The notes below the pieces were generated by a model. The model searched no databases and was not told the DNA's origin. It saw only the letters and a list, made by a program, of their open reading frames with translations. From a virus, in the IMG/VR virus record IMGVR_UViG_3300048687_000120, positions 1-37,017 of that record: 37,017 bases of DNA. One strand, written 5' to 3'. Of the stretch, positions 1 through 37,017 are shown piece by piece. Numbering within the stretch: the first letter of the stretch is position 1; each line of letters begins with the position of its first letter. A program made the position numbers and the translations under genes.

Positions 1-127
1 CCAGGGCCATGGCCAGGGGCGCGTTGTCGATGTGGGAGAGAGCCTGCTCGGTGACCGCGTCGTAGAACTGACCGCAGGCCGCGCCGACTTCCCGCACCTT
101 GGGCTGGACCACCGTGATGCCGAGCCG
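1..127. repeat. Terminal direct repeat, copy 1 (exact 127-bp identity with 36891..37017); circular-closure overlap
   Basis: Bases 1-127 read identically to 36891-37017. The repeat lies inside the terL reading frame. Confidence 0.95.
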
Positions 128-1378
128 TTCTTCCAGGGCCGGGATGAGCGAGCCGGCCGGACCGCCGCCGTCGATCACCCAGCAGCGCGGCTTGTGTCGT
201 TCGTGCAGGTCAGCGGCCCTGTCCAGGAGCCAGCCGGTACCCGGTTGATGGTCGACAACTTCCACGTGGGTGCCGCCGCGCCACGTGGAGGCCACGCCGA
301 TCGCCGCGTGCGAGCGTTCCGGGGTCATGTCGATCGAGAAGGACAGCGGCCCCTCGGGCTTGGAGTTGGCGTCCGCCAGCGTCCGCCATACGTCCTCACC
401 GATGACCTGCCAGGTGCTGGCCTTGTCCGACGGATACTCGCCGACCCCCAGCCGCTCCCGGGCGTACAGGAAGTCGCCCATGGTCAGCCGTCCGTGCATG
501 CTCTTGTCGACCTGCAGTCGGTAGCCCACCGCCGGATTCGCCTTCAGCAGCGAGGCCACCGAGTCGACGTCGTCGTGCGCCGTGCAGTCGGGCAGGCACT
601 CGGCCACATGCGGGTCGATCGACCACTCCATGTACGCGAGGACCGGATCCGGATCGCCACTCTCCAGCGCGGCCAGGGCGCGTTCCCGCAGCCGGCCGAG
701 CTGCTGTGAGGCGTGCCCGATACCGGCGCTGCCCAGGTACCACAGCTGGCTGTTCTCGACGGCGTCCGAGGTAGGCGCCAGCGCGGACATCGCGTCATCG
801 CCAAGGATCATGCACTCGTCGAAGATGACGCAGTCCGAGGTGAAGCCTCGTCCCGAGCCGCGGGAGCGGGCGATGTACTTCAGCTCCCGCCCGTCGTGCA
901 GCTCGATGCCCTCGCGGCCGACCGTCTTGTGGTAGTGCTTGACGCGTTTGTGCAGGTCAGGGCACCCGCGGATGAGCCGCTCGATGCGCTTCATCGTGTT
1001 CTGTGTCGTCTTGAACTCGTGCGCGCTCAGCAGGATCTGCTTCTCGTCGCCGATGAACAGGCCCCACAGCACCCGCGCCTCGATGATGCCGCCCTTGCCG
1101 TTCTGCCGCGGGAGGTTAACCGCGACCTCGGTGGCGTTCCAGCTGCCGTCCGCCCGCTCGCTCATGCCCTGGTCCAGGACGAACTGTTGCCAGGGATCGA
1201 GGTGGAGACCGGCTCGGGCCGCCAGGGCAACGGCCTCCTGCCCGGCGCTCGAGAGGGCGAAGCCCGGTACAGCGTGGATCCGCGGCCGCTGTGCGCCGTA
1301 GATGGTCGTGTCAGTCGCCGGCTGCTGCCTGCTCGCGGGCTTCGGCCCGGCGCTTTTCTCGCTGACGAGCGATGTCAT
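1..1378 (-). CDS. terL: Terminase large subunit, N-terminal ~459 codons; the ORF runs off the left edge and continues at 36890..36736
   Basis: Hand translation of the minus strand from ATG 1378 (SD GGAGGGAG about 9 nt upstream) is open to base 1. It contains ...AVNLPRQNGKGGIIEARVLWG... (Walker A) and ...SDCVIFDECMILG... (Walker B). It is missing from the ORF track because it has no stop inside the window edge. The start is uncertain (68-nt overlap with the upstream ORF). Confidence 0.9.
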   Translation of the reverse strand, partial: MTSLVSEKSAGPKPASRQQPATDTTIYGAQRPRIHAVPGFALSSAGQEAVALAARAGLHLDPWQQFVLDQGMSERADGSWNATEVAVNLPRQNGKGGIIEARVLWGLFIGDEKQILLSAHEFKTTQNTMKRIERLIRGCPDLHKRVKHYHKTVGREGIELHDGRELKYIARSRGSGRGFTSDCVIFDECMILGDDAMSALAPTSDAVENSQLWYLGSAGIGHASQQLGRLRERALAALESGDPDPVLAYMEWSIDPHVAECLPDCTAHDDVDSVASLLKANPAVGYRLQVDKSMHGRLTMGDFLYARERLGVGEYPSDKASTWQVIGEDVWRTLADANSKPEGPLSFSIDMTPERSHAAIGVASTWRGGTHVEVVDHQPGTGWLLDRAADLHERHKPRCWVIDGGGPAGSLIPALEERLGITVVQPKVREVGAACGQFYDAVTEQALSHIDNAPLAMAL

Positions 1379-1598
1379 CGACGCTGTCTCCCTCCTCGAT
1401 CACGGGGGCCAGCGTGCGAAGGTCGCTCAGGACGGCGCGCAGTTCGCGGGCTGCGTTGGCCTTGGCGGTCGGGCCGCTGTCCTCGTCGATCGATTCGGCC
1501 AGCGCGATGGCGAGCTGTGCGAGGCCAGGCGCTGTTTCGACGACGCGGAGTTGATCGATCTCGGCCGTGATCTTGTCAGTGACGATGCCCATGATCAC
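1311..1598 (-). CDS. Small acidic helical protein directly upstream of terL; possible small terminase subunit
   Basis: 95-aa ORF MIMGIVTDKITAEIDQLRVV… ending …REKRRAEAREQAAAGD. The call is by position only; no motif recognised. Confidence 0.45.
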   Translation of the reverse strand: MIMGIVTDKITAEIDQLRVVETAPGLAQLAIALAESIDEDSGPTAKANAARELRAVLSDLRTLAPVIEEGDSVDDIARQREKRRAEAREQAAAGD

Positions 1599-1831
1599 CC
1601 CCGGTCACAGAGCGTCAGAGGGTCCGGCGCCCACTAAATCGCCAGCGTGAAGACCAGCGGATTAGCGAGTGATCCGGGCCGCGCAAAAAATCGGGCGAGA
1701 AGGGCGTTTGGGTCGCCCAGGGGTGCACTAAAAAGTGGGGTGGGGCGGGGTCTCCTCGCCGCTCGTCACGGCCCCTGAGAGTGATCGTCCGAGGGGGTTC
1801 CGGGGCGCCGCCGGCCGGGGGTGACCAGGTG

Positions 1832-2269
1832 TCACCAGTCCCTCGAGCGTTGGGGCATGGCCTCTGCGGGGGCGTGCTTGCGGGCCTTGTACCAGCGGGA
1901 GGCGACCCGCTCCATGGCGGGGGACCTCATTGCCTTGATGCGTTCCATCACGACGTCACGGCCAGGGTCGACGGCCACCACCTTGGCCTCGAGACGCTTG
2001 TACTTGGCCATGGCCTTGGCGCTGGGCTGGGTGTGGATGAGGTAGACGTCGAGCTTGTCGAGGTGCTGGCAGGCTTCGTCGATGGCGGCGTAGCGGGCGC
2101 GGTGGGCAACACGCACGACCAGTTCGTTCTGGTTCCACTGCGGTGCGCCCGGGCCGGTGAGCGCGACGGTGATGCGGTCGAGGTCGATGACGATGTCGGT
2201 GGGCTTGGCGCGGGCCTGGATCCACGAGGACTTGCCCGCGGCCGGCGGGCCGGTGACGACGTACAGCAC
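1832..2269 (-). CDS. P-loop NTPase (AAA/kinase-like ATP-binding protein)
   Basis: GTG start with GAGGTG SD. N-terminal Walker A VVTGPPAAGKSSW. 145 aa. Confidence 0.7.
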   Translation of the reverse strand: MLYVVTGPPAAGKSSWIQARAKPTDIVIDLDRITVALTGPGAPQWNQNELVVRVAHRARYAAIDEACQHLDKLDVYLIHTQPSAKAMAKYKRLEAKVVAVDPGRDVVMERIKAMRSPAMERVASRWYKARKHAPAEAMPQRSRDW

Positions 2270-2275
2270 GGCCTG

Positions 2276-2554
2276 TCACCTCACCTCGGCGTCCGGGGCG
2301 AGTGCGAGGCCGGCGGCGTCGAGGAAGTCGCTGAGGTCGATGCAGCCGTCGAGTCTGCCGCCGGTGTTCCACTCGACGATCGGTTCCTTGTCCAGGTCCC
2401 AGGTGTCGGGGTCGGGGCTTGGCTGGGCTTCGACGGTGCCGATGCCGCTCCGGTAGCGCAGGTAGAGGTACTGGCCCGTGGCCGTCCAGGCGTCCCACTG
2501 CGACGGGCAGGCGCTGCAGGTCTCGACGACGCGGACGAGGACGGTTCTCGGCAT
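2276..2554 (-). CDS. Hypothetical small protein with a CxxC motif
   Basis: Only the last 92 codons of track ORF 2276..3817 look protein-like (MPRTVLVRVVETCSACPSQWDAW…). ATG at 2554 lies 3 nt after the HNH stop. Confidence 0.6.
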   Translation of the reverse strand: MPRTVLVRVVETCSACPSQWDAWTATGQYLYLRYRSGIGTVEAQPSPDPDTWDLDKEPIVEWNTGGRLDGCIDLSDFLDAAGLALAPDAEVR

Positions 2555-2556
2555 GG

Positions 2557-2832
2557 TCACCACCTTCGCAGGGTGCTCTGGGTCTGCTTGCGGGTGGTGC
2601 GGTTGCCCTTGACGCTGTTGCACCGCCGGTGTGCGGGGCGGGCATTGGCGGGGTCGAGGAGGCTGCCGCCGCGGGAGAGCGGGATCTCGTGGTCGAGGGT
2701 GAACGACAACGGGTGCCGGGCGTCCAGCTCGTAGCCAATGTTGTGGCCACACAGCCAGCACGGCAGGCCCTGGGCTCTCAGCCAGGCGCAGAGCCTGCGG
2801 TAGGGGCGCCCGTTGCGTGGATTGCTGGGCAC
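2557..2832 (-). CDS. HNH endonuclease (terminase-associated type)
   Basis: 91 aa with CWLCGH…LDHEIPLSRGG…PAHRRCNSVKGN, a classic HNH/His-Me finger. It lies in the same strand block as the terminase genes. Confidence 0.85.
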   Translation of the reverse strand: MPSNPRNGRPYRRLCAWLRAQGLPCWLCGHNIGYELDARHPLSFTLDHEIPLSRGGSLLDPANARPAHRRCNSVKGNRTTRKQTQSTLRRW

Positions 2833-2847
2833 GGGCGCCGCCCCCTG

Positions 2848-3099
2848 TCACTCCTCGCCGAGGACCTCGGCACGTGCGGCGTCGGCCTTGCGGTTGAGTA
2901 CGCCCGTCATCCTGAACACGATGAACGTGAGCAGCAGGAACACGACGACGAGCAGCACCTGTGTGATCACCGAGACGACGGCGACGTGTCGTGTGGCGCT
3001 GGCGATGATCGCCGTGATGCCGATGCCGGAGATCCAGCCGAGCCAGAGTCGGATCTTCTCGGCTCTGACGGCCTTCTGCACTTCGCTGTAGCTGGCCAT
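2848..3099 (-). CDS. Small membrane protein (2 predicted TM helices)
   Basis: MASYSEVQKAVRAEKIRLWLGWISGIGITAIIA…VLLVVVFLLLTFIVF. ATG 3099 is preceded by GGGGGGAACC (SD-like). The track ORF extends to GTG 3111. Confidence 0.6.
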   Translation of the reverse strand: MASYSEVQKAVRAEKIRLWLGWISGIGITAIIASATRHVAVVSVITQVLLVVVFLLLTFIVFRMTGVLNRKADAARAEVLGEE

Positions 3100-3123
3100 G
3101 GTTCCCCCCACGGTGATGGTGTG

Positions 3124-3564
3124 TCAGGGGTTCATGATGCCGCGCGTGAGGCTGGCCGGTACATGGGTTCCGATCGCTGCCATGACGGCGCGGGCGCAGG
3201 CGACGTAGTCGGCGCGGACTGCCTGTATCTGGTCGCTCCAGTCGCTGTCCGGGAACCGGTTGGCGTGGATGGCCCGGGCTGCGCGCAGCACCAGGTCCTC
3301 GTCGCTCACGGCCGGGGCGTGCAGGTCGACGACGTAGCGGTACACGGGCTTGCCGCCGTTGCGCTCCCGGGCGCGGGCCGAGGTGAGTTCGGCGTGCGTC
3401 CAGGTGACGGTGCCGCGGTGTCCGCTGGGGAAGCGGCATTCGAAGCGGTCGGGGGTGGTGGGGACGCCCATGGCCTGGTTGTCGATGCGGGCCTTGGTGA
3501 GTGCTTCGACGCGGTCGGCAATGGTGCGGAGCTGGCGGGGGGTGAGGCTGTTGTCGACGGGCAC
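3124..3564 (-). CDS. Hypothetical protein
   Basis: 146-aa ORF. GTG start with AGGAG 6 nt upstream. Balanced composition, unlike the overlapping Pro/Arg-rich shadow ORFs. Confidence 0.6.
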   Translation of the reverse strand: MPVDNSLTPRQLRTIADRVEALTKARIDNQAMGVPTTPDRFECRFPSGHRGTVTWTHAELTSARARERNGGKPVYRYVVDLHAPAVSDEDLVLRAARAIHANRFPDSDWSDQIQAVRADYVACARAVMAAIGTHVPASLTRGIMNP

Positions 3565-6940: not shown

Positions 6941-7065
6941 CGGCTGCCCCCTTCCGCTTGAACCCGTCAACTCTGCCAGTCGACCGCGGGTGATCGCAGG
7001 GTGGATAGCACACGGGTGCCGGGCGCGGATCGGCCCGGGTGCCGTCCGGCGCCGGGAGCCGGGAG

Positions 7066-7074
7066 CTAGGTTCT
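7066..7074 (+). promoter_or_regulatory. Third copy of the switch-region operator half-site CTAGGTTCT, 6 nt upstream of the parA ATG
   Basis: The exact 9-mer also occurs at 14494-14502, and as its reverse complement at 14469-14477. Confidence 0.45.
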
Positions 7075-11658: not shown

Positions 11659-12669
11659 CTACAGACCGGAGCCGATGAACCTGCGTCGCGCGGGTGCGGC
11701 CACGGTCGCCTGCACCGCGGAGTACAGGCGCAGATCACGCACCCAGTTGGGCAGGCACTTGACCCAGGAGTCGGCGCCGCCGGTGTTCTTGAAGATGTCT
11801 GCCTCGAGCAGCTGCTGCTGGGCGTCGTCCATGTCGGCGATCTGCGGCCATCCCTGATCGCGCATCGCGCGCAGCAGCAACGGGGCGCACTTGCGGGCGG
11901 TAGCTGCCCCTGCCTGCCAGGTGGTCATCTGCTGCAGGAAGACCTCGGCGTTCCGGGTTTGCTCCGGAGAGAATCCCTCCCCCTCCGCTCGTTGCTGCGC
12001 CGTGCTCTTGGCGTGCGTGAGGGGGTTGGGGGAGGAGGAATCCTCCTCCTCCGGGGGGTGTGGGGGGGGAGCGTCCGATCCGGACAGGGTGTCCCGATCG
12101 GTCTGACCTGCGGCGTTGGGTGATTTCCGATCGGGACAGGGTGTCCCGATCGGCGCCGATCCGGACAGGGTGTCCCGATCGGCCTGACCTGCGCATCCGG
12201 ACAGGGTGTCCCGATCGGAAGCGGCGTTGGCCTCCCCATCGGGACAGGGTGTCCCGATCGGCCTGACCTGCAGTGCTTCCTGGACGCCGCCGCGGACATA
12301 GGCGGCGTTGTTGGCGGGGTTCCGGTAAACACGGAACACCCACTCGGGGCGCTTCGTCTCCGGGTTGTACTCCCGCTTGTGTTCCACGTGGCCGGCCTTC
12401 TTCAGCCGTCGCATGATCTTGCGGAGGTCGCGTTCGCTGAGCGTCCAGCCGCCCGTCCGGAACTCGTCGAGCAGGCCGAGGATGCTGGACGGCTGCTTCG
12501 GGTCACGGAGCAGCAGGCGGATGAGGACGCCGTAGTCGTCGAAGTCGAGGTCCGGTGAGAGCGCGAGGGCGTACGGAATGACGACCTCCTCCGGCGGCTC
12601 CCACATCCGGATGACCCGGGTTGCGGCGAAGCCAGGACCAAAGGTGTCCTGCGTGGCGTCTTGCGCCAT
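11659..12669 (-). CDS. Replication initiator candidate (winged-helix-like N-domain; iteron-containing CDS)
   Basis: From ATG 12669 (SD AGGAA): …DDYGVLIRLLLRDPKQPSSILGLLDEFRTGGWTLSERDLRKIMRRLKKAGHVEHKR…. It lies immediately upstream of the helicase gene and contains the 5x20-bp repeat array. Confidence 0.55.
   Translation of the reverse strand: MAQDATQDTFGPGFAATRVIRMWEPPEEVVIPYALALSPDLDFDDYGVLIRLLLRDPKQPSSILGLLDEFRTGGWTLSERDLRKIMRRLKKAGHVEHKREYNPETKRPEWVFRVYRNPANNAAYVRGGVQEALQVRPIGTPCPDGEANAASDRDTLSGCAGQADRDTLSGSAPIGTPCPDRKSPNAAGQTDRDTLSGSDAPPPHPPEEEDSSSPNPLTHAKSTAQQRAEGEGFSPEQTRNAEVFLQQMTTWQAGAATARKCAPLLLRAMRDQGWPQIADMDDAQQQLLEADIFKNTGGADSWVKCLPNWVRDLRLYSAVQATVAAPARRRFIGSGL
12082..12261. repeat. 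Five exact 20-bp iterons GGACAGGGTGTCCCGATCGG (candidate origin of replication)
   Basis: Copies start at 12082, 12134, 12163, 12199 and 12242. Each is the core of a 23-25 bp near-palindrome (C/G)ATC(C/G)GGACA-GGG-TGTCCCGATCG. Confidence 0.7.
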
Positions 12670-12860
12670 GTGCTTGTTCCTATCGGGTAGGAGAAGCACC
12701 GAGATCCATGTCATCCCCGGCCTGCCTTCCCGCCCTTCCCGGTGGCGGGTACAGTCCTTGATGGGACCTACGTGGAACCCAGACTTCTCATTTGTTTCGT
12801 TTCCTGCGAGACGAGAGATGTGAACCGGCGGCTTCCCGGCCGACCAGTTCGGACGCATTC

Positions 12861-12910: not shown

Positions 12911-13126
12911 CTACGCGCTGACGGGCGCCTTGATGCGCTTCGCCAGCTCGCCCTCCCAGTCCCCGCGGTGGATTCGCGTGGCCAGGTCGAACTGCATGGT
13001 GCGCACCTTCAGGCGCCCGTCACGCAGCATGGTCTTCAGGGTGCGCGGGTCGACGCCGATGACGGCCGCAGCCTCGGTCACCTTGATCCACTCGGGCTTG
13101 ATGTGGCTGGGTGTGCTGTACGGCAT
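12911..13126 (-). CDS. Small HTH DNA-binding protein (excisionase/MerR-like HTH_17 type; Cro-like position)
   Basis: 71 aa from ATG 13126 (SD GGGAGGGG): MPYSTPSHIKPEWIKVTEAAAVIGVDPRTLKTMLRDGRLKV…. Confidence 0.65.
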   Translation of the reverse strand: MPYSTPSHIKPEWIKVTEAAAVIGVDPRTLKTMLRDGRLKVRTMQFDLATRIHRGDWEGELAKRIKAPVSA

Positions 13127-13160
13127 GGCCCCTCCCGGGACGCGTTGAGGTCGTAACCAG

Positions 13161-13189
13161 ACACTCGCACAGATTTCACAAGACGTTCC
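13161..13189 (-). promoter_or_regulatory. Candidate promoter PC (-35 GGAACG, 17-nt spacer, -10 GAGTGT)
   Basis: Minus strand GAGGTGAGGGGGGAACGTC…GAGTGT. It has the same G-run + GGAAC + 17 nt + NANNNT architecture as PA and PB. Confidence 0.4.
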
Positions 13190-13193
13190 CCCC

Positions 13194-13643
13194 TCACCTC
13201 TGGCCATGATCTGCAGCCACGAGGCGAGGACTCTCGCCGCCCATTTCGTGTACGGCGCGCTGCACCGTTTCGACTGGATCGCCGAACGATGTCAGGTCGA
13301 ACCACTCGCCCCGTACGCGGTAGGCCGCGAACCGTCGGTGCAGTTCTCTCTCGTACTTCCCGGTCGTGGACCAAAGAAGAGAGAGCGTCATCGGCTGACC
13401 AGTTTGGAGGGCCGCCAGGCGTCTCTGTGGGTCCAGAGTGGTGTGCCCGATCTTGACAAGGTGGGTGTGCTCCGCGCCGATCAGGTACGTCCTGGGGACT
13501 TCCTGCATTCGCTGCCACTTGCGTTCCAAGGCCGATGCCCGACCGGGGAGCAGCGGACGAAAGCGCTCGTTGTTCTTCCTAGGCGCCTCGACACCTCCGA
13601 CGATGAGGTAGCGGCCCGGATCCTCATAGTCGTACTTCCGCAT
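13194..13643 (-). CDS. T5orf172 / GIY-YIG-superfamily (MUG113-like) domain protein
   Basis: 149 aa from ATG 13643: …TYLIGAEHTHLVKIGHTTLDPQRRLAALQTGQPMTLSLLWSTTGKYERELHRRFAAYRVRGEWFDL…. Confidence 0.65.
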   Translation of the reverse strand: MRKYDYEDPGRYLIVGGVEAPRKNNERFRPLLPGRASALERKWQRMQEVPRTYLIGAEHTHLVKIGHTTLDPQRRLAALQTGQPMTLSLLWSTTGKYERELHRRFAAYRVRGEWFDLTSFGDPVETVQRAVHEMGGESPRLVAADHGQR

Positions 13644-13647
13644 CCCG

Positions 13648-14451
13648 CTACTCCTTCGGCCGAACAGGCTGGACGGGCCACTCAGCATCGCCTCCGCGGA
13701 CCAAGTCGGAGACGAGCTCCACCCGGTCGCTCGGAATCACCTTCATCGTGACCTCGATAGGCGCGTCGGTCCGTGCCGAGTAGCCGACCATCGTCACCTC
13801 GAAGACAGGCAGCGCCGTCGCGATGGACAGCAGGTCCGCCTCCTCCTTGCTCGGCATGCGAGCACGGATGGTCTCGCGCCAGGAGATGGGCCCGTGGCCG
13901 GCATCTTCCAGGCGGTCGAGATATCCGCCAGGGCCGGTGTCCGGCTCGGCTACCTGGGGGGCGTCGGCAACGGCGGCGGGACTGATCCATGTGTCGACCA
14001 GCTGGAAGGCGGGCTCTCCCTTGGGGGCCATGACGCGACGCCGACGCAACACGGAAGCCCCCGCCTCCACGCCGAACGTGTCGGCGACGAGTGCGGGCAC
14101 GGGCTCGAGCGATCGGAACGGCTTGCCGAGCGGACCCCACGTCTCGGACGGATCGTGGGTGGCAGGGAAGACGTAGCCGTAGTGCGGGTTGCGGGTGACG
14201 GTCTGGCCACGGCGGATACGCCGGCGCCGGACGCGGTCCTGCAAGACGATGCCGCGGCGGTTCACCGAGCGGATGAGCCCCTCGGCCGCGACCATGTTCA
14301 CGGCCGAACGGATCGTTTCCCGCGCTACGTCGTACTGGTCGGTCAGGTCCGCGATGGTTGCGAGGACTTCGCCGGGCTGCTTCTCCCCGTTGAGAACTCG
14401 GGCTCGCAGATCGTCCGCGACTTCTCGCGCGGTTCGCTTCTTGGTGGTCAT
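13648..14451 (-). CDS. GntR/HutC-family transcriptional regulator (wHTH + UTRA-like C-domain); repressor candidate
   Basis: 267 aa: …VLATIADLTDQYDVARETIRSAVNMVAAEGLIRSVNRRGIVL… followed by a ~180-aa effector-type domain. It faces a divergent promoter/operator region. Confidence 0.8.
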   Translation of the reverse strand: MTTKKRTAREVADDLRARVLNGEKQPGEVLATIADLTDQYDVARETIRSAVNMVAAEGLIRSVNRRGIVLQDRVRRRRIRRGQTVTRNPHYGYVFPATHDPSETWGPLGKPFRSLEPVPALVADTFGVEAGASVLRRRRVMAPKGEPAFQLVDTWISPAAVADAPQVAEPDTGPGGYLDRLEDAGHGPISWRETIRARMPSKEEADLLSIATALPVFEVTMVGYSARTDAPIEVTMKVIPSDRVELVSDLVRGGDAEWPVQPVRPKE

Positions 14452-14458
14452 ACCGACA

Positions 14459-14510
14459 ACCCTAGCAGAGAACCTAGGTACTTGACGTTGAGACTAGGTT
14501 CTAATAGTGT
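14459..14510. promoter_or_regulatory. Divergent promoter/operator switch
   Basis: Rightward promoter: -35 TTGACG 14482-14487, 17-nt spacer, -10 TAGTGT 14505-14510. Leftward promoter: -10 TAGGGT (complement of 14459-14464), 7 nt before the GntR ATG (leaderless). 9-bp inverted repeat AGAACCTAG 14469-14477 / CTAGGTTCT 14494-14502 brackets the -35. ACCTAGGT 14472-14479 is itself a perfect palindrome. Confidence 0.6.
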
Positions 14511-14633
14511 CTGCCATGTCGGAAAGAGCGGCGGCCCAGTAACGCCGATAGGCCCAGGTGGTAACGACACCCAGGCCTATCGGGGGTCCCGAAGGACCCG
14601 GCGACCACGTCCTACCGCAATAGGAGTGACCGC

Positions 14634-15125
14634 ATGCGCAACCGTAGCGCAGCTATCGAAACCACGACCGAACGGGACCGCCTCGGGAACCCGTTCAACG
14701 ACTTCCTCGCCTCCTACGTCGACACGCCCCAGGGCCGCGTGACCGGCCGGCTGAGCGTGGACGACATCGTCTCCATCCGCGAGACCACCCTCTCCGAGGC
14801 GCCGAACCGCACCTACGTGTCGGTCCTCGGCTACGTCGAGTCGGTCCGCACCTTCATGAGCGTCAAGTGGCCCGCCCGGCACCCGTTCGGCGTCTTCCGC
14901 CTGGACTCCGGAACCGGTGCCGCCGCGATCGTCACCCTGACCTCGGTCAAGTACGAGAAGTACTGGGGCGACCTCGTCATGGGCCGCCGCGTCCGCGTCT
15001 GCGGAGCCGTCACCCGTTCCGAGCAGGGCGCCCCCGTGACGCTCCGCCTGGACCGGCTGACCGTCCTCCGCACCCTGCTCGTCACCCCCGCCCAGGACAC
15101 CCACCGTCTGGCCGGAGCCCGGTGA
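14634..15125 (+). CDS. Hypothetical protein, possibly an OB-fold nucleic-acid-binding protein
   Basis: 163 aa; AGGAG SD 8 nt upstream. A beta-rich segment …VRVCGAVTRSEQGAPVTLRLDRLTVL… resembles OB-fold anticodon-binding-type domains (weak call). Confidence 0.4.
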   Translation: MRNRSAAIETTTERDRLGNPFNDFLASYVDTPQGRVTGRLSVDDIVSIRETTLSEAPNRTYVSVLGYVESVRTFMSVKWPARHPFGVFRLDSGTGAAAIVTLTSVKYEKYWGDLVMGRRVRVCGAVTRSEQGAPVTLRLDRLTVLRTLLVTPAQDTHRLAGAR

Positions 15126-15745
15126 TGGCGACCCTCGAAGCCTTCGACGCCGGTCAGCCCATCGACCTCAAGCTGATCCTCGCCGTCGAGAACGCCCTCC
15201 GTCACCTGTCCGACACCCGAGTGCGGCTCGTCCCCGCCCCCCGGGTGTGGAAGGACTCCAACCCCCAGGGCAGCGTCAAGGGCCCCAAGTGGCAGGAGAA
15301 GGCGAGGATCAAGGGCCTCCTCGCCGCCCGCGACGGCGCCGCCTGCGCCTACTGCGGCCACGACTTCTACAACTTGACCGAGGCCACGCTCGACCACGTC
15401 ATCCCGAACTGCATCGTTGGCCACTGGGAACCGTGGAACCTGCTCCTGGCCTGCGAGCCGTGCAACAACCAGAAGGCCGACCTTCTGCCGCTCGTCCTGA
15501 TGCCGATGCTCTGCACGACACTCACGGCCGCCGACCGGTGGCTGCAGGCAAAGGCCGAGAAGAAGCGAGCGAGCCGCCGGGCAAAGAAGCGTCGCGCCAA
15601 TGACAGGCGCAGGGCCCGCCGGCGTCACGACGCCGCCATGGCGGCCGCGAGGAAGCAGATCAGCGCACTGTCCGGCACCCCGTACCGGCTCGCCCTCGAA
15701 GCGGCCCCGGCCCGCGCGGCGCTCCCCAGCGGGACCGGCCAGTGA
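15125..15745 (+). CDS. HNH endonuclease (second copy, early operon)
   Basis: The ATG overlaps the upstream stop (TGATG). Contains …CAYCGHDF…LDHVIPNCIVGHWEPWNLLLACEPCNNQKAD… and a basic C-terminal tail. Confidence 0.8.
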   Translation: MATLEAFDAGQPIDLKLILAVENALRHLSDTRVRLVPAPRVWKDSNPQGSVKGPKWQEKARIKGLLAARDGAACAYCGHDFYNLTEATLDHVIPNCIVGHWEPWNLLLACEPCNNQKADLLPLVLMPMLCTTLTAADRWLQAKAEKKRASRRAKKRRANDRRRARRRHDAAMAAARKQISALSGTPYRLALEAAPARAALPSGTGQ

Positions 15746-16077
15746 CCAGCGACCAGGCCCGCGCCTCCCTGAACCGCCTGGCCGCCGCCCTGCACGAGCT
15801 CAGCTACCGCGGCACCATCCGCATCCGGCCCGAGATCCGGCTGCTGCTGGTCCCCGGCACCCCGGACGCGGACCCCGCCGACCTGCACGCCATCGGCCTC
15901 AGCCCGCAGATCGCGAACCTGCTCGCCGACACCATCGAGCGCCTCATGCGCGACACCGCGCCGACGCTCCCCGCCGAGGATGCCGCGCTCGCGGCCGCCG
16001 TCGCCGACATCTTCAACTCCCTCGACGTCGACGCGCTGCGCGCCGCCGAGACGCACCGTAAGGACGTGGACGAATGA
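15742..16077 (+). CDS. Hypothetical protein
   Basis: 111 aa; GTGA start/stop overlap with the upstream gene. Confidence 0.55.
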   Translation: MTSDQARASLNRLAAALHELSYRGTIRIRPEIRLLLVPGTPDADPADLHAIGLSPQIANLLADTIERLMRDTAPTLPAEDAALAAAVADIFNSLDVDALRAAETHRKDVDE

Positions 16078-18092: not shown

Positions 18093-19124
18093 GTGAAGGT
18101 ACCCGGAGAGGACACCACCGCTCCGAACGACGTCGACCAGATCCTCGGCGACGCCTTCCGGCAGTGGTGGAAGCCGGTCACGCGCTTCATCTGCACACGC
18201 GTCGACAACCGCCACCGCATGCACGCCGAGGACCTCGCCTCCCGCACCTTCGAGGAGTACTGGCGCTTCCTCGAATCGGGAAAGCGACCGCAGGGCCCGG
18301 TATGGGGACTGCTGTGCACGATGGCACGCCAAGCCATCTCGGAGTTCTACCAGGCGTTCAGCAACCGCCTCGAGTCCTCCTGCGACTTCACCGACCCGGC
18401 CAACCGCAGCATCGCGGCCGGCCACGCCTACGCCCCCGCCTCCCCGACCCTGGCCGAACTGAGCGCCGAACTGGACGCGGCCACCGCCGAGATGGAGACC
18501 ACGTCGGCTCTCTGGCGGAAGCTGCACGCCGAGTGCACCAAGGTCTACTCCCGACTGCAGCAGTCCCAGACCGCCCGCACGACGGACCGCCTGACCGCTG
18601 CGCTACGGCAGGCCGACCAGGACGCCGCGGCGCAGCTCGTCGTCTTCCGCGCCGCCTGCCACCGTGTCGGCACGCTGCGCGCCGAGATCGAGGCCGCCGC
18701 AGGTCCGCACTACCGGTCGGTGGTCGTCCAGCCCGAGGTGCCGAACCAGCGCAGCCGGCCGCACACGGTCGTCAGTGACCCGACCCTCACGCACTGCCGC
18801 ACCGGGCACCGCATGACCCTGCACAACACCCAGTTCCACGCAGACGGCACCCGTGCCTGCCGCGCCTGCAAGCACGCTCAGCACCGGCAGCGCGAGGCCG
18901 CATCCGACACCCCGAAGAACGCGCCCACCGCCCTGAAGTGCACGCCCGCTCTGATTGCCCGCGCCCGCCGGCTGTTCGCCGCCCCGGCCGCCGCTAACAG
19001 GACCCTCGCCGACCTCGGACAGGAGCTCGGCGTCAGCGTGCGCGTCCTGCGCAAGCACATCCCCGACCTCACAGAGCTGCGCCACCAGGCGCGCACCGCC
19101 GCCTTGGCAGGTACTGCCCGATGA
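18093..19124 (+). CDS. Sigma-70/ECF-like transcription factor candidate with an internal Cys/His cluster and a C-terminal HTH
   Basis: GTG 18093 (SD AAGGAA). …HAEDLASRTFEEYWRFLESGKRPQGPVWGLLCTMARQAISEFYQ… resembles sigma region 2. …RTLADLGQELGVSVRVLRKHI… resembles a region-4 HTH. …HCRTGHRM…TRACRACKH… lies between them. Confidence 0.45.
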   Translation: MKVPGEDTTAPNDVDQILGDAFRQWWKPVTRFICTRVDNRHRMHAEDLASRTFEEYWRFLESGKRPQGPVWGLLCTMARQAISEFYQAFSNRLESSCDFTDPANRSIAAGHAYAPASPTLAELSAELDAATAEMETTSALWRKLHAECTKVYSRLQQSQTARTTDRLTAALRQADQDAAAQLVVFRAACHRVGTLRAEIEAAAGPHYRSVVVQPEVPNQRSRPHTVVSDPTLTHCRTGHRMTLHNTQFHADGTRACRACKHAQHRQREAASDTPKNAPTALKCTPALIARARRLFAAPAAANRTLADLGQELGVSVRVLRKHIPDLTELRHQARTAALAGTAR

Positions 19125-20648: not shown

Positions 20649-20950
20649 CGGCGTGTCCGGGCTACGCACGCGCGGTAGCCGTCCGGCGGGCCGGGACCGC
20701 CTACTTACTACTTACCGACCGGGGGAGAAAGCCCCCGATGTCCGATTCTCGGGCCGGATCGGCAGGAAGTAGCGCTCTTCCGGGCCGGTCGGTAAGAAGT
20801 CAGTAACTCGGCGACGTGACGCGGGGTGACGAATCGTCATCATCACATTGCCGGGAGAAGGTGATGATGCGGGCCCCAACGCGCGCGCGCGACGCGCGTG
20901 CGCGAGGGAAGCACAACCGGTGACGCAGCGTCAAGGAATTCCGGGCAGCG

Positions 20951-20992
20951 AAAAGGCCCCCGCGGCACCCGTGTTGGGCGCCGCGGGGGCCT
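20951..20992 (-). terminator. Canonical rho-independent terminator for leftward (late) transcripts
   Basis: 13-bp perfect stem AGGCCCCCGCGGC (20954-20966) / GCCGCGGGGGCCT (20980-20992). On the minus strand it is followed by TTTT (complement of AAAA 20951-20954). Confidence 0.65.
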
Positions 20993-21232
20993 CGTCCGTT
21001 CTTCCTCCCACTTCCTCCCCCCAGGCAGGAGAACCGCCGTTCGCCCTTGTGACGTGGCCGGACGTGATGGCGACCGTGTCAGGGGGAGGGAGGAGGAGAA
21101 GCCACCACCGCCTCACGGCGGGGCGTGGCGGCGCCTCTGGCGGGCTTTCAGCCCATCGGCGGCGCGGAGTCCGCGCGCGCCTCTGCTGTCCCGGCAGACG
21201 GGCGCTGAGTGCGACTTGGCCAATCCGTGGCA

Positions 21233-21883
21233 TCACGGGTACTGGCGGCGCTGAGGATCCAACGCGGCCGCAGACGGGGACGGCTGCCCGTCGTCGTCCG
21301 GTGCCGGTGCACCATCCCGGCGGCAGACGAGCGCGTCGGGGTCGCCGGGCGGGGTCTGCAGGCTGTACCCGTCCGGGCAGGTCTGCCCGTCACGGCCATC
21401 GGCCCCGTCTTTTCCGGCGGCGCCGGCGGGGCCTGGCTCGCCCTGCGGTCCGGCCGGCCCTGGCTCGCCCTGCGCGCCTGGAGCGCCCGGTGTTCCGGCG
21501 GCGCCACTCGGGCCGGTCTTGCCCACGCCATCGGTTCCCTTCGCGCCGTTGTCGCCGTCGCTGCCGTTCTTGCCCGGTGATCCGGACGGTCCCGGGCTGC
21601 CCGGGTTTCCCGGTTCACCCTGCGCGCCGCGCGGACCCTGTATCGAACGGCCAGGGGTGCCGCGGCTCCCGGGCGGGCCAGCCACGGGTGTGCCGCCCAT
21701 CCGCTCGACCTGCCGGGCCAGCTGGTCACGCGCCTCGTTCGCCGTCCGCAGGTCGTCCGTCATCGCCTGCACCGTCAGCACGATCCAGGCGACGGCGATT
21801 CCCAGCGCGATGGCGCCGAACACCGCGAAGACGTCTCCGCGGCGCCAGCGCCGTTCCTCCGCCCGGATCTGGCCGCGCGTCAT
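21233..21883 (-). CDS. Membrane-anchored collagen-like (Gly-X-Y repeat) protein
   Basis: 216 aa from ATG 21883 (ATGA overlap with the upstream gene). N-terminal [23 protein letters not shown], a short coiled segment, about 30 G-X-Y triplets ([25 protein letters not shown]…[19 protein letters not shown]; nt ~21383-21679), and a Cys-containing C-terminal domain. Confidence 0.75.
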
Positions 21884-34677: not shown

Positions 34678-35424
34678 TCAGAAGGTGCGGCGCTTCATGA
34701 GCTCGGCGCGTCGCTGCCGGTTCGCGAGCGTCGGGTGGGTGTCGCCCTGCCCGTCGCCGTGCGGAGTCTTGGGGTCTGCTGCCTGCCGCAGGGCCGCCTC
34801 GAGGCGGCTCGGGTCCGCGTGCAGGTCGATCGTGATCGTGTTCTTCGCGCGGTCGAGGAACCGCTCGAGGCGCCCGTCCTCGGCGGCCGCCCGCACCTCG
34901 GCCAGGTCCGCCTCGGCGTGCTCGGCCAGCGAGCGCAGCCCGGTGGACGTATCGAGGTAGGCGGGGGTGTTGACGGGGGCGACGTCGACCAGGCGGCCGG
35001 ACAGCAGCGTCCGCACCGGGAACCCGTCGTCCGTCATCCCCCAGTCGTCATCGAACGTGTAGAACGCGAAGCTGGAGCGCTGTACGTCGCCGCGCTGCAC
35101 CAGCTCGTACACGTCCGCGCGGGCGGCCGGGACGTCCACGCTGTAGTCCAGCCCGGTGCCGTCCGTGAGCAGCCGCAGCGTGCCGCCGGCGGTCGTGCCC
35201 AGCAGCATGTTGTCGTCGTGGTTGTAGCGGGCCATGGCCTCCGGCCAGCCGTCGCCCTCGGACTTGGCGAAGAAGCCGGGGTCGATCCGTTCGACGAACC
35301 CGCCGAGGTTGCGGCTGAGCGCGTTGTACTTGGCGGCGTACCCGCCGATCGTGCGCGTGCTGTCGCCGGCCGCCCGCACCTCGACAATGCCGCGGGTGAA
35401 CCGGCGTTCCTGCTGCTCGTTCAT
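34678..35424 (-). CDS. HK97-family prohead protease
   Basis: 248 aa: …IGGYAAKYNALSRNLGGFVERIDPGFF…ARYNHDDNMLLGTT…GDVQRSSFAF…, between the portal and capsid genes. Confidence 0.8.
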   Translation of the reverse strand: MNEQQERRFTRGIVEVRAAGDSTRTIGGYAAKYNALSRNLGGFVERIDPGFFAKSEGDGWPEAMARYNHDDNMLLGTTAGGTLRLLTDGTGLDYSVDVPAARADVYELVQRGDVQRSSFAFYTFDDDWGMTDDGFPVRTLLSGRLVDVAPVNTPAYLDTSTGLRSLAEHAEADLAEVRAAAEDGRLERFLDRAKNTITIDLHADPSRLEAALRQAADPKTPHGDGQGDTHPTLANRQRRAELMKRRTF

Positions 35425-36725: not shown

Positions 36726-36735
36726 AACTGCCCCC

Positions 36736-37017
36736 TCACCAGACCGCGTTCATGATGTCGCCGGGATACTCGACCTCGGCGCCGAGTCCCCACTTGGCCA
36801 GCGTCACGGCCACCAGGGGGGAGATATCGACACCGACGCCACGCCGGGCCCACGCCCAGGCGTCGCCCAACGGACGCTTCTGTGCGCCCGCCAGGGCCAT
36901 GGCCAGGGGCGCGTTGTCGATGTGGGAGAGAGCCTGCTCGGTGACCGCGTCGTAGAACTGACCGCAGGCCGCGCCGACTTCCCGCACCTTGGGCTGGACC
37001 ACCGTGATGCCGAGCCG
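36736..37017 (-). CDS. terL: Terminase large subunit, C-terminal part (same gene as 1..1378 through the circular junction; about 510 aa in total)
   Basis: Track ORF 36736..37002 (…VQPKVREVGAACGQFYDAVTEQALSHIDNAPLAMALAG…) is in the same frame (coordinate mod 3) as the ORF leaving base 1. Residues encoded by 1-127 are the same as those encoded by 36891-37017. Confidence 0.9.
   Translation of the reverse strand, partial: RLGITVVQPKVREVGAACGQFYDAVTEQALSHIDNAPLAMALAGAQKRPLGDAWAWARRGVGVDISPLVAVTLAKWGLGAEVEYPGDIMNAVW
36891..37017. repeat. Terminal direct repeat, copy 2 (identical to 1..127)
   Basis: Same 127-nt string as the window start (ccagggccatggccaggggcgcgttgtcgatg...gtgatgccgagccg). Confidence 0.95.

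What the first reader, a model, noticed from the sequence alone, without database searches (positions are those of the whole stretch)
14452..14633. Compact genetic switch: leaderless GntR/HutC regulator gene facing a rightward promoter bracketed by a 9-bp inverted repeat
Seen: the only clearly AT-enriched stretch between the divergent genes holds a consensus-like rightward promoter (TTGACG-17-TAGTGT, 14482-14510). A leftward TAGGGT -10 ends 7 nt before the GntR ATG (14451), which implies a leaderless mRNA. The inverted repeat AGAACCTAG (14469-14477) / CTAGGTTCT (14494-14502) flanks the rightward -35 and lies in the leftward spacer, and ACCTAGGT is itself palindromic. Established: HutC/GntR regulators bind short palindromes of this kind, and GntR-type Kor repressors control Streptomyces plasmids and AICEs, whereas classical phage repressors are usually cI/Xre-like. 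Inference: the GntR protein is the master repressor. Its effector-type (UTRA-like) domain would allow small-molecule control of induction, which would be unusual for a phage.
Basis: partly seen in the sequence, partly recalled or inferred. Interest (0 to 1): 0.65.

Follow-up and report, generated by a model that had tools for sequence, protein, structure and literature searches.

The report
GntR repressor switch plus antisense RNA

Summary
The window is a about 37-kb phage-plasmid related to Streptomyces plasmid-phage pFP4. The gene at 13648-14451 encodes a full-length HutC-type GntR regulator (wHTH + UTRA; the predicted fold matches DasR and NagR).

The "9-bp inverted repeat" is better read as two separate CTAG-centred 14-bp palindromic operators. 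O1 is 14469-14482 and O2 is 14489-14502, with centres 20 bp apart, bracketing the -35 of TTGACG-17-TAGTGT. In 11 close relatives the sites, both promoters and the leaderless arrangement (TGnTAnnnT 6-7 nt before the ATG) keep their positions. In distant relatives the box sequence changes along with the GntR recognition helix.

So the repressor-operator pairing is well supported. It is the Kor-type logic known from Streptomyces plasmids and AICEs. "Master repressor" and small-molecule control remain inferences.

New here: the rightward leader carries hairpins that are selected on the minus strand.
- G·U pairs: 60 minus-strand versus 3 plus-strand equivalents.
- Loop: a cUUCGg tetraloop.
- Consensus fold: -34 versus -14 kcal/mol.
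- Promoter: an invariant minus-strand TAnnnT sits inside codons 3-5 of the first rightward gene.

This predicts a about 100-nt cis-antisense RNA over the leader, SD and start codon. No Rfam family matches it.

The parts
13648..14451 (-). HutC-type GntR regulator gene (267 aa), leaderless, first gene of the leftward operon (GntR, T5orf172, HTH_17, 399-aa protein with iterons, DnaB helicase)
   Evidence: PF00392 3.6e-12 and UTRA PF07702 9.4e-16. Full-length match to phrog_10724, 8e-70. AlphaFold model pLDDT 88.9. Foldseek top hits are 3eet, DasR 4zs8 and YvoA/NagR, E about 1e-14.
14459..14467 (-). Leftward promoter: extended -10 TGCTAGGGT, ending 7 nt before the GntR ATG (leaderless mRNA). No recognisable -35.
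   Evidence: TGnTAnnnT lies 6-7 nt before the ATG in the window and 10 of 10 close relatives.
14469..14482 (.). Operator O1, AGAACCTAGGTACT. It matches the palindrome AGAACCTAGGTTCT at 13 of 14 positions. It abuts the rightward -35 and covers about -18 to -31 of the leftward promoter.
   Evidence: The same box core is found in relatives at 55-80% identity.
14482..14487 (+). Rightward promoter -35, TTGACG
   Evidence: Conserved as TTGACG, TTGACT, TTGCAT or TTGCCA at the same place in 11 relatives.
14489..14502 (.). Operator O2, TGAGACTAGGTTCT (11 of 14 matches), in the -35/-10 spacer of the rightward promoter. Its centre is 20 bp from the O1 centre.
14505..14510 (+). Rightward promoter -10, TAGTGT. 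The predicted start site is about 14516-14518.
   Evidence: TAGTGT, TAATGT or TATTGT is conserved with a 17-18 nt spacer. The homologous promoter is called by the scan in L002 and L028.
14533..14583 (-). P1' on the minus strand: a long GC-rich hairpin (14583..14545) plus a U-rich tail. It is the terminator-like 3' end of the predicted antisense RNA.
   Evidence: The 10 core pairs are never broken in 24 sequences when G·U is allowed. All 18 non-Watson-Crick cells in the core are minus-strand G·U equivalents. The homologous hairpin in L002 is called terminator-like on the GntR-direction strand.
14584..14599 (-). P2' on the minus strand: GGGUCC-UUCG-GGACCC, a hairpin with a cUUCGg tetraloop.
   Evidence: In 14 of 24 relatives the stem has a C·A mismatch on the plus strand, which is a U·G pair on the minus strand.
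14606..14629 (+). P3: a hairpin in the rightward mRNA leader that pairs the Shine-Dalgarno sequence AGGAG (14622-14626). Pairs are UCCUA/UAGGA plus CAC/GUG.
   Evidence: MFE fold. CAC/GUG changes to CGC/GCG, and CCUA/UAGG to CCUG/CAGG, across relatives; this was read by eye.
14641..14646 (-). Predicted -10 (TACGGT) of a leftward antisense promoter, inside codons 3-5 of the first rightward gene. The predicted start site is about 14633-14635.
   Evidence: TAnnnT occurs at the same offset in 23 of 24 relatives. Codon 4 ends in T in 24 of 24 (background T3 is 5.8%) across six different amino acids, and codon 5 starts with A in 23 of 24.
14634..15125 (+). First gene of the rightward operon (163 aa, OB-fold-like, function unknown). 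It is followed by HNH (15125-15745), small ORFs, DUF6907, an ECF-like sigma factor (18093-19124) and a 494-aa protein.
7061..7074 (.). Possible third, weak operator-like site, GGGAGCTAGGTTCT (perfect right half), 5 nt before the likely parA start at 7080.
   Evidence: Not conserved at parA in the relatives examined. It may be chance.

Best explanation
The 182-bp interval is the divergent control region of a pFP4-like Streptomyces phage-plasmid.

Shown by sequence and comparison:
- A leaderless gene for a HutC-type GntR protein is read leftward from an extended -10 promoter.
- A Streptomyces-type promoter (TTGACG-17-TAGTGT) reads rightward into an operon that encodes an OB-fold-like protein, an HNH nuclease and an ECF-like sigma factor.
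- Two CTAG-centred 14-bp palindromes, O1 and O2, have centres 20 bp apart. They lie over the upstream edge of the -35 and inside the spacer of the rightward promoter. O1 also lies directly upstream of the leftward -10.

Inferred:
- One GntR dimer binds each palindrome. Together they block RNA polymerase at the rightward promoter and keep the operon silent in the plasmid-prophage state. Through O1 they also limit GntR's own synthesis. This is the kil-kor logic of KorSA, KorA and ImpA.
- A second layer acts on the rightward transcript. A promoter inside codons 3-5 of the first rightward gene fires leftward and makes an RNA of about 100 nt. This RNA has an anti-SD segment, a UUCG hairpin and a terminator hairpin. 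It is fully complementary to the rightward leader, SD and AUG, so it should block translation or trigger cleavage of leaky transcripts. It is also transcribed convergently with the rightward promoter.
- Derepression would let the operon's sigma factor switch on later genes. What triggers derepression is unknown: a ligand on the UTRA domain, an antirepressor, or dilution.
For: Protein identity:
- Pfam GntR + UTRA.
- NCBIfam PhnF/HutC-like over residues 9-247.
- Model pLDDT 88.9 with DasR, YvoA and PhnF as the best structural matches.

Operators:
- Pattern enrichment and CTAG clustering.
- Conserved positions and 20-bp spacing in 11 relatives.
- Eight relatives at 45-60% identity carry three AAACCTAGGTTT boxes. 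One lies in the GntR-proximal part of the intergenic region, one abuts a TTGACA -35, and one lies after the -10.
- Other relatives carry different palindromes at the same place: ACAGTACCGGTACTGT, CATGACCGGTCATG, ACATCTCTAGAGATGT, and a 15-bp IR in pFP4.
- The GntR recognition helix differs between box groups and is conserved within them.
- HTH_17 is absent from many box-bearing loci. In pFP4 it is 72% identical to the window's copy although the boxes there are unrelated.

Leaderless arrangement.

Context:
- pFP4-like synteny.
- Sigma factor.
- Literature on Kor repressors (PMC2440964, PMC8584621).

Antisense RNA:
- Covariation in the hairpins: 8 pairs with double changes against 2.7 in shuffles, 0 of 500 shuffles reaching 8.
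- Strand asymmetry of wobble pairs over P1 and P2: 60 minus-strand against 3 plus-strand.
- RNAalifold on the same 24-sequence alignment: -34.4 kcal/mol on the minus strand against -13.6 on the plus strand.
- Window minus-strand fold z = -3.8.
- A terminator call in L002.
- An invariant minus-strand TAnnnT with a synonymous-site constraint.
Against: - There are no binding, transcript or genetic data. Every functional step is inferred.
- The window's O2 is a weak palindrome (11 of 14).
- The rightward promoter fails the E. coli-type scan in the window.
- No -35 was found for the leftward promoter or for the antisense promoter.
- The window's terminator tail (UAUCGGCGUUACU) is poorer in U than in relatives, and the scan does not call it.
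- Plus- and minus-strand single-sequence MFEs are similar.
- The rightward operon is assumed to be the 'lytic' one. The 21-23 kb relatives have the same operon, but no capsid or tail genes are annotated in the one mapped in full (L002), so the operon may serve plasmid functions.
- I could not read the pFP4 or pZL12 papers. I cannot say what is already known about this regulator.
Confidence: 0.7

Rival explanations
1. The GntR/operator pair is a plasmid kil-kor or early-function control, not the lysis-lysogeny master switch. It would gate transfer or spread, replication start-up or accessory genes. Another factor would decide phage induction: the sigma factor, a WhiB-like protein in relatives, the HTH_17 protein, the antisense RNA or a host factor.
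For: In pFP4 the homologous rightward operon carries FtsK/SpoIIIE (Tra-type) and DUF2637 genes. A 22-kb circular relative has the same GntR and rightward operon, with no capsid or tail genes annotated. Kor proteins of AICEs control transfer and replication (PMC2440964).
Against: In the window no Tra/FtsK gene was found in the rightward operon. No cI/Xre-type repressor was found among the ORFs scanned. The operon encodes a sigma factor, a typical cascade element.
Confidence: 0.25
2. The conserved hairpins act in the rightward mRNA on the plus strand, and no antisense RNA exists. Possible roles are a processive-antitermination (put-like) element, an RNase III site, an mRNA stabiliser or a riboswitch-like leader. 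The invariant T-A in codons 4-5 would then serve translation or mRNA structure.
For: The element lies directly downstream of the rightward promoter. P3 pairs the SD on the plus strand. The plus-strand fold z is -3.2. Single-sequence MFEs are similar on both strands.
Against: Non-Watson-Crick cells are almost all C·A on the plus strand, which equals G·U on the minus strand: 60 against 3 over P1 and P2. P2 has a mid-stem C·A mismatch on the plus strand in 14 of 24 sequences. The loop is cUUCGg only on the minus strand. The consensus fold is -34.4 against -13.6 kcal/mol. The U-rich tail follows the hairpin only on the minus strand.
Confidence: 0.2
3. The inverted repeat is a chance feature of an AT-rich promoter region, or it binds a different protein (HTH_17 or a host regulator such as a DasR-like factor) rather than the adjacent GntR.
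For: A 9-bp IR alone is not rare: there are 31 such loci in the window. The box in L027, GGTTCTAGACC, resembles host DasR boxes; that resemblance rests on my own knowledge.
Against: CTAG clustering and pattern enrichment. Conserved position across 11 relatives. Box type tracks the GntR recognition helix. HTH_17 does not track the boxes.
Confidence: 0.05

Closest known systems
KorSA of pSAM2, KorA of pMEA300 and ImpA of SLP1: GntR-type Kor repressors of Streptomyces and actinomycete plasmids and AICEs
   Same: A GntR/HutC-family repressor on a mobile element that binds its own promoter and that of a neighbouring operon. [quoted passage not shown] Both keep the element quiescent. No effector is known (PMC2440964, PMC8584621). 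TraR of pSN22 (PDB 1v4r; identification from my own knowledge) is among the best sequence matches to the wHTH.
   Different: Sequence identity to Kor-type plasmids such as pEN2701 is only about 36%. The host element here carries a full siphovirus structural module. The window's controlled operon has no Tra gene but does have an ECF-like sigma factor. There are two operators at a 20-bp spacing over one promoter. A predicted cis-antisense RNA has not, to my knowledge, been reported for Kor systems.
Plasmid-phage pFP4 of Streptomyces sp. FR1 (NC_017833.1; Chen et al. 2012, Plasmid 68:170)
   Same: The overall architecture matches: structural genes, tyrosine recombinase, ParA, replication genes, HTH_17, then GntR facing a small OB-like gene. 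GntR is 61% identical. The structured leader and antisense element is conserved.
   Different: The operators differ: pFP4 has a 15-bp IR, CATGCCCATCCTTGC/GCAAGGATGGGCATG. The recognition helix also differs, so a different immunity specificity is predicted. The replication genes differ (Prim-Pol/DUF927 against DnaB). The rightward operon differs (WhiB and Tra against HNH and sigma). I could not read the paper, so what it says about the GntR gene is unknown to me.
DasR and NagR (YvoA), structurally characterised HutC regulators
   Same: They are the best structural matches to the model. The domain order is the same. They bind as dimers to roughly 16-bp palindromic operators with a central TA (4wwc is a YvoA-operator complex).
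   Different: Sequence identity is 18-21%. They are chromosomal metabolic regulators with known amino-sugar phosphate effectors. Nothing here identifies a ligand.
Dual protein + countertranscript control (pIP501 CopR/RNAIII) and phage antisense RNAs (P22 sar, lambda OOP); comparison from my own knowledge
   Same: A repressor at the promoter is combined with a short, structured, constitutively made antisense RNA that covers the leader, SD and start of the controlled transcript. The two promoters are convergent.
   Different: No sequence or Rfam relationship. The setting is an actinobacterial GC-rich phage-plasmid. Expression and mechanism are untested.

Membership tests
GntR superfamily, HutC subfamily | N-terminal winged-helix GntR DNA-binding domain | tested here: met
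   PF00392 E=3.6e-12, residues 8-69. The profile hits the wHTH of YvoA, TraR and 3eet.
GntR superfamily, HutC subfamily | C-terminal UTRA (chorismate-lyase-like) effector/oligomerisation domain | tested here: met
   PF07702 E=9.4e-16, residues 115-244. Foldseek matches the effector domains of DasR, PhnF and HutC with TM-scores normalised to the target of 0.66-0.78.
GntR superfamily, HutC subfamily | Binds a palindromic operator as a dimer | not testable with these tools
   Only indirect evidence: two 14-bp palindromes next to the gene, with box type tracking the recognition helix.
GntR superfamily, HutC subfamily | DNA binding released or modulated by a small-molecule effector | not testable with these tools
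   No ligand can be inferred. Invariant Arg136, Arg137 and Arg139 on a UTRA strand are only a hint of an anion site. They do not align with conserved residues in 3eet.
Streptomyces Kor-type (kil-kor) repressors | GntR-family gene on a plasmid or AICE-type mobile element, next to the operon it controls, with inverted-repeat sites in the shared promoter region | tested here: met
   Literature: PMC2440964.
Streptomyces Kor-type (kil-kor) repressors | The controlled operon contains the kil/transfer gene (FtsK/SpoIIIE-type Tra) | tested here: not met
   No Tra/FtsK domain in the window's rightward ORFs. It is present in pFP4's homologous operon.
Streptomyces Kor-type (kil-kor) repressors | The repressor gene cannot be deleted without the kil target (kil-override phenotype) | not testable with these tools
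   Genetic test only.
pFP4-like Streptomyces phage-plasmids | A siphovirus structural module together with ParA, plasmid-type replication genes and a tyrosine recombinase on one element of about 35-41 kb | tested here: met
   Portal, protease, capsid, adaptor, tape measure and tail proteins. ParA, recombinase and EndoVII. DnaB. Synteny with NBC_01259 plasmid unnamed3 (36.7 kb, circular) and pFP4.
pFP4-like Streptomyces phage-plasmids | Maintained as a circular plasmid and able to form virions | not testable with these tools
   The window equals its whole contig, 37,017 bp. The gene order runs across the window ends. Relatives are deposited as circular plasmids.
cis-encoded antisense (countertranscript) RNA | A conserved promoter on the strand opposite the target leader | tested here: met
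   A minus-strand TAnnnT at a fixed offset in 23 of 24 relatives, with a synonymous-site constraint. No -35 was identified.
cis-encoded antisense (countertranscript) RNA | Stem-loops selected on the antisense strand | tested here: met
cis-encoded antisense (countertranscript) RNA | An intrinsic terminator that defines a short RNA | tested here: inconclusive
   Called in L002, but not in the window or in L028. A U-rich tail is conserved in most relatives.
cis-encoded antisense (countertranscript) RNA | The RNA is actually made and acts on the target | not testable with these tools
   Needs strand-specific RNA-seq, a Northern blot and genetics.
Classical cI/Xre-type phage repressor | HTH_3/Xre DNA-binding domain, often with an S24 peptidase domain | tested here: not met
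   The regulator is GntR + UTRA. No Xre, cI or S24 domains were found in the ORFs scanned. Not every small ORF was scanned.

The most novel reading that the evidence does not exclude
pFP4-like Streptomyces phage-plasmids use a three-part switch. The first part is an immunity-specific HutC-type repressor whose UTRA domain senses a metabolite. The second is a pair of operators over the early promoter. The third is a previously undescribed, immunity-independent cis-antisense RNA family of about 100 nt, with a UUCG hairpin and a terminator, made from a promoter embedded in the first codons of the early gene. The plasmid-versus-lytic/transfer decision would then integrate a small-molecule signal and convergent RNA control.
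Probability: 0.3. Interest if true: 0.75.

Novelty: new variant of a known kind. Interest (0 to 1): 0.55.

Why it matters
Phage-plasmids are increasingly recognised, but their switches are known mainly from P1, N15 and VP882 in Proteobacteria. Streptomyces examples (pZL12, pFP4) are barely characterised.

This region gives a compact, testable model. A Kor-type plasmid repressor has been recruited to gate an operon containing a sigma factor. Operator and recognition-helix variants define predicted immunity groups. A conserved antisense RNA could be a new RNA family.

If the UTRA domain does bind a ligand, this would be a metabolite-gated phage-plasmid switch in antibiotic-producing bacteria. 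The promoter/operator/repressor set could also serve as an orthogonal regulatory part for Streptomyces engineering.

The repressor-operator part taken alone is an ordinary member of a known class.

Tried and rejected
- **Nucleotide searches:** megablast of 13000-16000 against phages and plasmids gave no match.
- **tblastn input quirk:** given as a DNA reference, tblastn returned nothing. The same protein given as letters found 170 plasmids and only 3 weak phage hits.
- **Rfam:** with permissive thresholds on 14300-14800, only noise.
- **E. coli-type promoter scan of the window:** no promoter called. I rejected this as a test, because Streptomyces -10 elements are TAnnnT-like.
- **One split 9-bp operator with a 16-bp gap:** rejected in favour of two palindromes. 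Each arm is half of its own CTAG-centred palindrome, and relatives have near-perfect palindromes at each site. Examples are GAACCTAGGTTC at O2 in L028 and GGGACTAGTCCC at O1 in L029.
- **HTH_17 as the box binder:** rejected.
- **A lambda PRE-like leadered GntR mRNA from the antisense promoter:** disfavoured, because I saw no SD upstream of the GntR ATG in the relatives I inspected.
- **RNAalifold on the plus strand:** gave a poor consensus.
- **Looking by eye for a sigma-70 -10 just upstream of P2':** none found. The invariant hexamer lies further upstream, in the coding region.
- **IMG/VR pattern scan:** mostly false positives; only 2 true relatives.
- **Extra operator copies at parA in relatives:** not found.
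- **tRNA or attP clues:** none.
- **Primary papers:** those on pFP4, pZL12 and KorSA binding sites are not held.
- **Arg136-139 as a phosphate site:** the sequence alignment to 3eet does not support equivalence.
Full report
**1. The observation**

Reading 13500-15200 confirms every coordinate in the finding:
- CAT, the reverse complement of the GntR ATG, ends at 14451.
- ACCCTA, which is TAGGGT on the minus strand, is at 14459-14464, 7 nt from the ATG.
- AGAACCTAG is at 14469-14477 and CTAGGTTCT at 14494-14502.
- TTGACG is at 14482-14487, followed by a 17-nt spacer and TAGTGT at 14505-14510.

The repeat finder returns the perfect 9-bp inverted repeat. It also shows that the first arm is part of a palindrome, and that CTAGGTACT and CTAGGTTCT form a direct repeat 20 bp apart. 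The stretch 14447-14506 is the lowest-GC 60-mer of the whole window: 45% against 70% overall.

A perfect 9-bp IR is not strong evidence on its own. It arises in 1.9% of shuffles of the 182-bp region, and the window has 31 such loci. The real signal lies elsewhere:
- CTAG is extremely rare here: 8 copies against 42-100 expected. Three of the 8 lie within 36 bp of each other.
- The idealised palindrome AGAACCTAGGTTCT, allowing up to 3 mismatches, hits three times against 0.24 expected.

**2. What the element is**

The window is 70% GC. On the minus strand it encodes portal, protease, major capsid, head-tail adaptor, tape measure and tail proteins. It also encodes ParA, a tyrosine recombinase, EndoVII, a DnaB-type helicase and HNH nucleases.

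The GntR protein has 714 homologues at E<1e-10, nearly all from Streptomyces. The best annotated matches are small circular "plasmids":
- NEAU-sy36 unnamed2 (22.4 kb, 81% identity).
- S. chartreusis unnamed4 (21.6 kb).
- NBC_01259 unnamed3 (36.7 kb, with capsid and tail genes).
- pFP4 of Streptomyces sp. FR1 (40.9 kb, 61% identity).

pFP4 is the published "plasmid-phage" (Chen et al. 2012, cited in PMC6950372 and PMC4170104). I could not read the paper itself. Its gene map has the same architecture as the window.

The window is mosaic. Its rightward operon resembles that of NEAU-sy36. Its structural genes resemble those of NBC_01259. Its recombinase and HTH_17 resemble those of pFP4. The window equals its whole contig, and the head genes continue across the window ends. 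It is therefore probably a complete circular genome.

**3. The regulator**

The gene at 13648-14451 encodes a 267-aa protein:
- It has a GntR wHTH and a UTRA domain.
- It gives weak PhnF/HutC equivalog-type matches.
- It gives a full-length match to PHROG 10724.
- An AlphaFold model built on 38 homologues has pLDDT 88.9.
- The model's best PDB neighbours are full-length HutC regulators: 3eet, DasR, YvoA/NagR and PhnF, at E about 1e-14.

The HutC assignment is therefore solid.

**4. Promoters and operators, by comparison**

I compared the intergenic region in ten close relatives plus the window (70-81% protein identity).

The leftward promoter is conserved:
- All have TGnTAnnnT on the GntR strand, 6-7 nt before the ATG.
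- I saw no Shine-Dalgarno sequence.
- The arrangement is therefore a conserved extended -10 promoter giving a leaderless mRNA.

The rightward promoter is conserved:
- All have TTGAC-like, then 17-18 nt, then TA(G/A/T)TGT pointing away from GntR.
- The generic scan calls this promoter in L002 and L028, though not in the window.

Two CTAG-centred sites keep their places:
- O1 sits just upstream of the -35 and O2 sits in the spacer.
- Their centres are 20 bp apart, 19 bp in one case.
- Several relatives have near-perfect palindromes at a single site. GAACCTAGGTTC is at O2 of L028 and GGGACTAGTCCC is at O1 of L029.

More distant relatives show the same design with other box sequences:
- Eight relatives at 45-60% identity carry three AAACCTAGGTTT boxes. 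One is in the GntR-proximal part of the region, one abuts a TTGACA -35, and one follows the -10.
- Others carry different palindromes in the same places. These are ACAGTACCGGTACTGT, CATGACCGGTCATG, ACATCTCTAGAGATGT, and a 15-bp perfect IR around TTGACA in pFP4.

The box type points to GntR as the binder:
- The GntR recognition helix is conserved within box groups and differs between them. It reads ARETxR, S(Y/H)ETxR, GRGVI and SRQTAQ in different groups.
- The fit is imperfect. The CATGACCGGTCATG locus (L015) has an SRETIR helix close to the window's group.
- The conserved neighbour HTH_17 does not follow the boxes. It is missing from many box-bearing loci. In pFP4 it is 72% identical to the window's copy although the boxes there are unrelated.

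This is the pattern expected of a repressor and its operators diversifying into immunity groups.

**5. Mechanism**

*What is shown.* The positions are established. O2 occupies about -28 to -15 of the rightward promoter and O1 about -48 to -35. O1 also occupies about -18 to -31 of the leftward promoter.

*What is inferred.* Occupancy by two GntR dimers should occlude the rightward promoter and autoregulate the leftward one. KorSA, KorA and ImpA do this on pSAM2, pMEA300 and SLP1 (PMC2440964, PMC8584621).

*The two operons.*
- The leftward operon continues into replication genes. The synteny GntR, HTH_17, then Prim-Pol/D5, Toprim or DnaB is seen. A 5-copy iteron array lies at 12074-12263. This fits expression in the plasmid-prophage state.
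- The rightward operon encodes an OB-like 163-aa protein that is conserved as the first gene. It also encodes HNH, DUF6907, an ECF-like sigma factor at 18093-19124 and a 494-aa protein. A cascade to later genes is therefore plausible but not shown.

*Limits.* Whether this operon is "lytic" is uncertain. In pFP4 the homologous operon carries a Tra-type FtsK gene. The 21-23 kb relatives keep the operon, but the one mapped in full has no capsid or tail genes annotated. Small-molecule control cannot be assessed. No effector is known even for KorSA (PMC8584621).

**6. An additional component: a conserved antisense RNA**

The 117-nt rightward leader is more conserved than the promoter, even between heteroimmune elements such as the window and pFP4. 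Two hairpins show compensatory changes. P1 is 14545-14583 and P2 is 14584-14599. Eight pairs show double changes against 2.7±1.2 in shuffles. Controls with the partners slid by 1-3 columns give 0-2. Pattern scans of IMG/VR and metagenomes, filtered with nhmmer, raised the set to 24 distinct sequences.

The pairing is strand-specific:
- Over P1 and P2, 60 non-Watson-Crick cells are C·A or A·C on the plus strand, which means G·U on the minus strand. Only 3 are G·U on the plus strand.
- In the 10-bp P1 core, all 18 exceptions are of the minus-strand kind.
- P2 has a cUUCGg tetraloop only on the minus strand.
- In 14 of 24 sequences P2 has a mid-stem C·A mismatch on the plus strand.
- On one and the same alignment, RNAalifold gives -34.4 kcal/mol for the minus strand and -13.6 for the plus strand.
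- On the minus strand, P1' is followed by a conserved U-rich tail (YUUYGGYGUUUCUGG-like).
- In L002, P1' is called terminator-like.

A promoter is also predicted upstream on the minus strand:
- A TAnnnT hexamer (window TACGGT, 14646..14641) lies at a fixed offset inside codons 3-5 of the first rightward gene in 23 of 24 relatives.
- Codon 4 ends in T in 24 of 24. The background T3 frequency is 5.8%, and the codon encodes six different amino acids across the set.
- Codon 5 begins with A in 23 of 24, across five amino acids.
- This is a nucleotide-level constraint, not a protein-level one.

Together these predict an RNA of about 100 nt running leftward from about 14634 to about 14535. It would be complementary to the leader, SD and AUG of the rightward operon. 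The window sequence folds into three hairpins with z = -3.8. No Rfam family matches.

The plus-strand leader also has an SD-pairing hairpin, P3, whose arms co-vary by eye.

I rate this antisense layer at about 0.6. It has no transcript evidence, no recognisable -35, and a U-poor tail in the window itself.

**7. Comparison, novelty and verdict**

The repressor-operator core works like the Kor repressors of Streptomyces plasmids and AICEs, and probably belongs with them in the broad sense. It fails one Kor feature in this window: the controlled operon has no Tra gene.

I found no paper in the held library that describes a GntR/HutC protein as the switch repressor of a temperate phage or phage-plasmid. 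I could not read the pFP4 and pZL12 papers.

My assessment is therefore as follows:
- The core is a new variant of a known kind.
- The antisense RNA is the most novel and most testable addition.

Noticed in passing
window 12074-12263: There are five copies of an iteron-like unit, CCGATCSGGACAGGGTGTCCCGATCGG. Each unit is itself an inverted repeat. They lie inside the 399-aa ORF (11659-12858, minus strand) upstream of the DnaB helicase gene. This is probably the plasmid replication origin. The pattern is enriched: 4 hits against 0.33 expected.
   Followed up: partly
window 13194-13688 (minus strand): A T5orf172/MUG113-domain ORF sits between GntR and HTH_17 and overlaps the GntR 3' end by 41 nt. 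It has lower GC3 (0.75). Relatives go straight from GntR to HTH_17, so this looks like an inserted homing-endonuclease-like gene. A CCTAGG-core sequence (13574-13587) lies inside it.
   Followed up: no
window 7061-7074: An operator-like sequence, GGGAGCTAGGTTCT, with a perfect right half-site, lies 5 nt before the probable parA start (ATG 7080). It could link GntR to partition control or be chance. No equivalent was found at parA in relatives, though L002 has a third box-like site (19800) downstream of its recombinase gene.
   Followed up: partly
window 20650-21850: About 1.2 kb has no clear GC3 coding signal, between the end of the rightward operon and the tail-fibre end of the structural module. 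It contains a 21-nt inverted repeat (20702-20722 and 20785-20805), a 17-nt hairpin (20954-20992) and several GC-rich direct repeats. The window has no tRNA. The function is unknown; candidates are attP, cos or a terminator region.
   Followed up: partly
L002 (NZ_CP058979.1), L003 (CP108844.1), L004 (CP075612.1): These 21-23 kb plasmids share the GntR region. L002 and L003 share the rightward-operon genes (OB-like and HNH; sigma in L002), while L004 has a WhiB-type gene there. L002 and L004 share HTH_17 and replication genes, and L002 also has ParA and a recombinase. In L002, the one mapped in full, no capsid or tail genes are annotated; it has only a tape-measure-like fragment. They could be defective derivatives, plain plasmids or satellites of the 35-41 kb phage-plasmids.
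   Followed up: no
GntR residues 73-95 and 135-140 (window about 14235-14167 and about 14049-14032): An Arg-rich linker, RVRRRRIRRGQ..VTRNP..GYVF, follows the wing and is conserved in all relatives. Arg136, Arg137 and Arg139 on a UTRA beta-strand are invariant. These may be an extra DNA contact and an anion-binding site respectively. They are not explained.
   Followed up: partly
L121, L124, L151, L158; L034, L066, L090, L168 (metagenome and IMG/VR loci): The antisense/leader element also occurs next to other operator types: GCGCTAGTACTAGCGC, TCGCTAGCACTAGCGA and repeated GTGTAGTGCT. Where a regulator was detected (L090, L151) it is only a weak wHTH match. The RNA module is therefore more widely conserved than the GntR specificity group.
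   Followed up: partly
window ends (1-3564 and 35421-37017): A putative terminase-side block lies at the left end: a 458-aa ORF at 2-1378, an HNH at 2557-2832 and small ORFs. The portal lies at the right end. All are on the minus strand, so the late operon runs across the window boundary. This fits a complete circular or circularly permuted genome.
   Followed up: no
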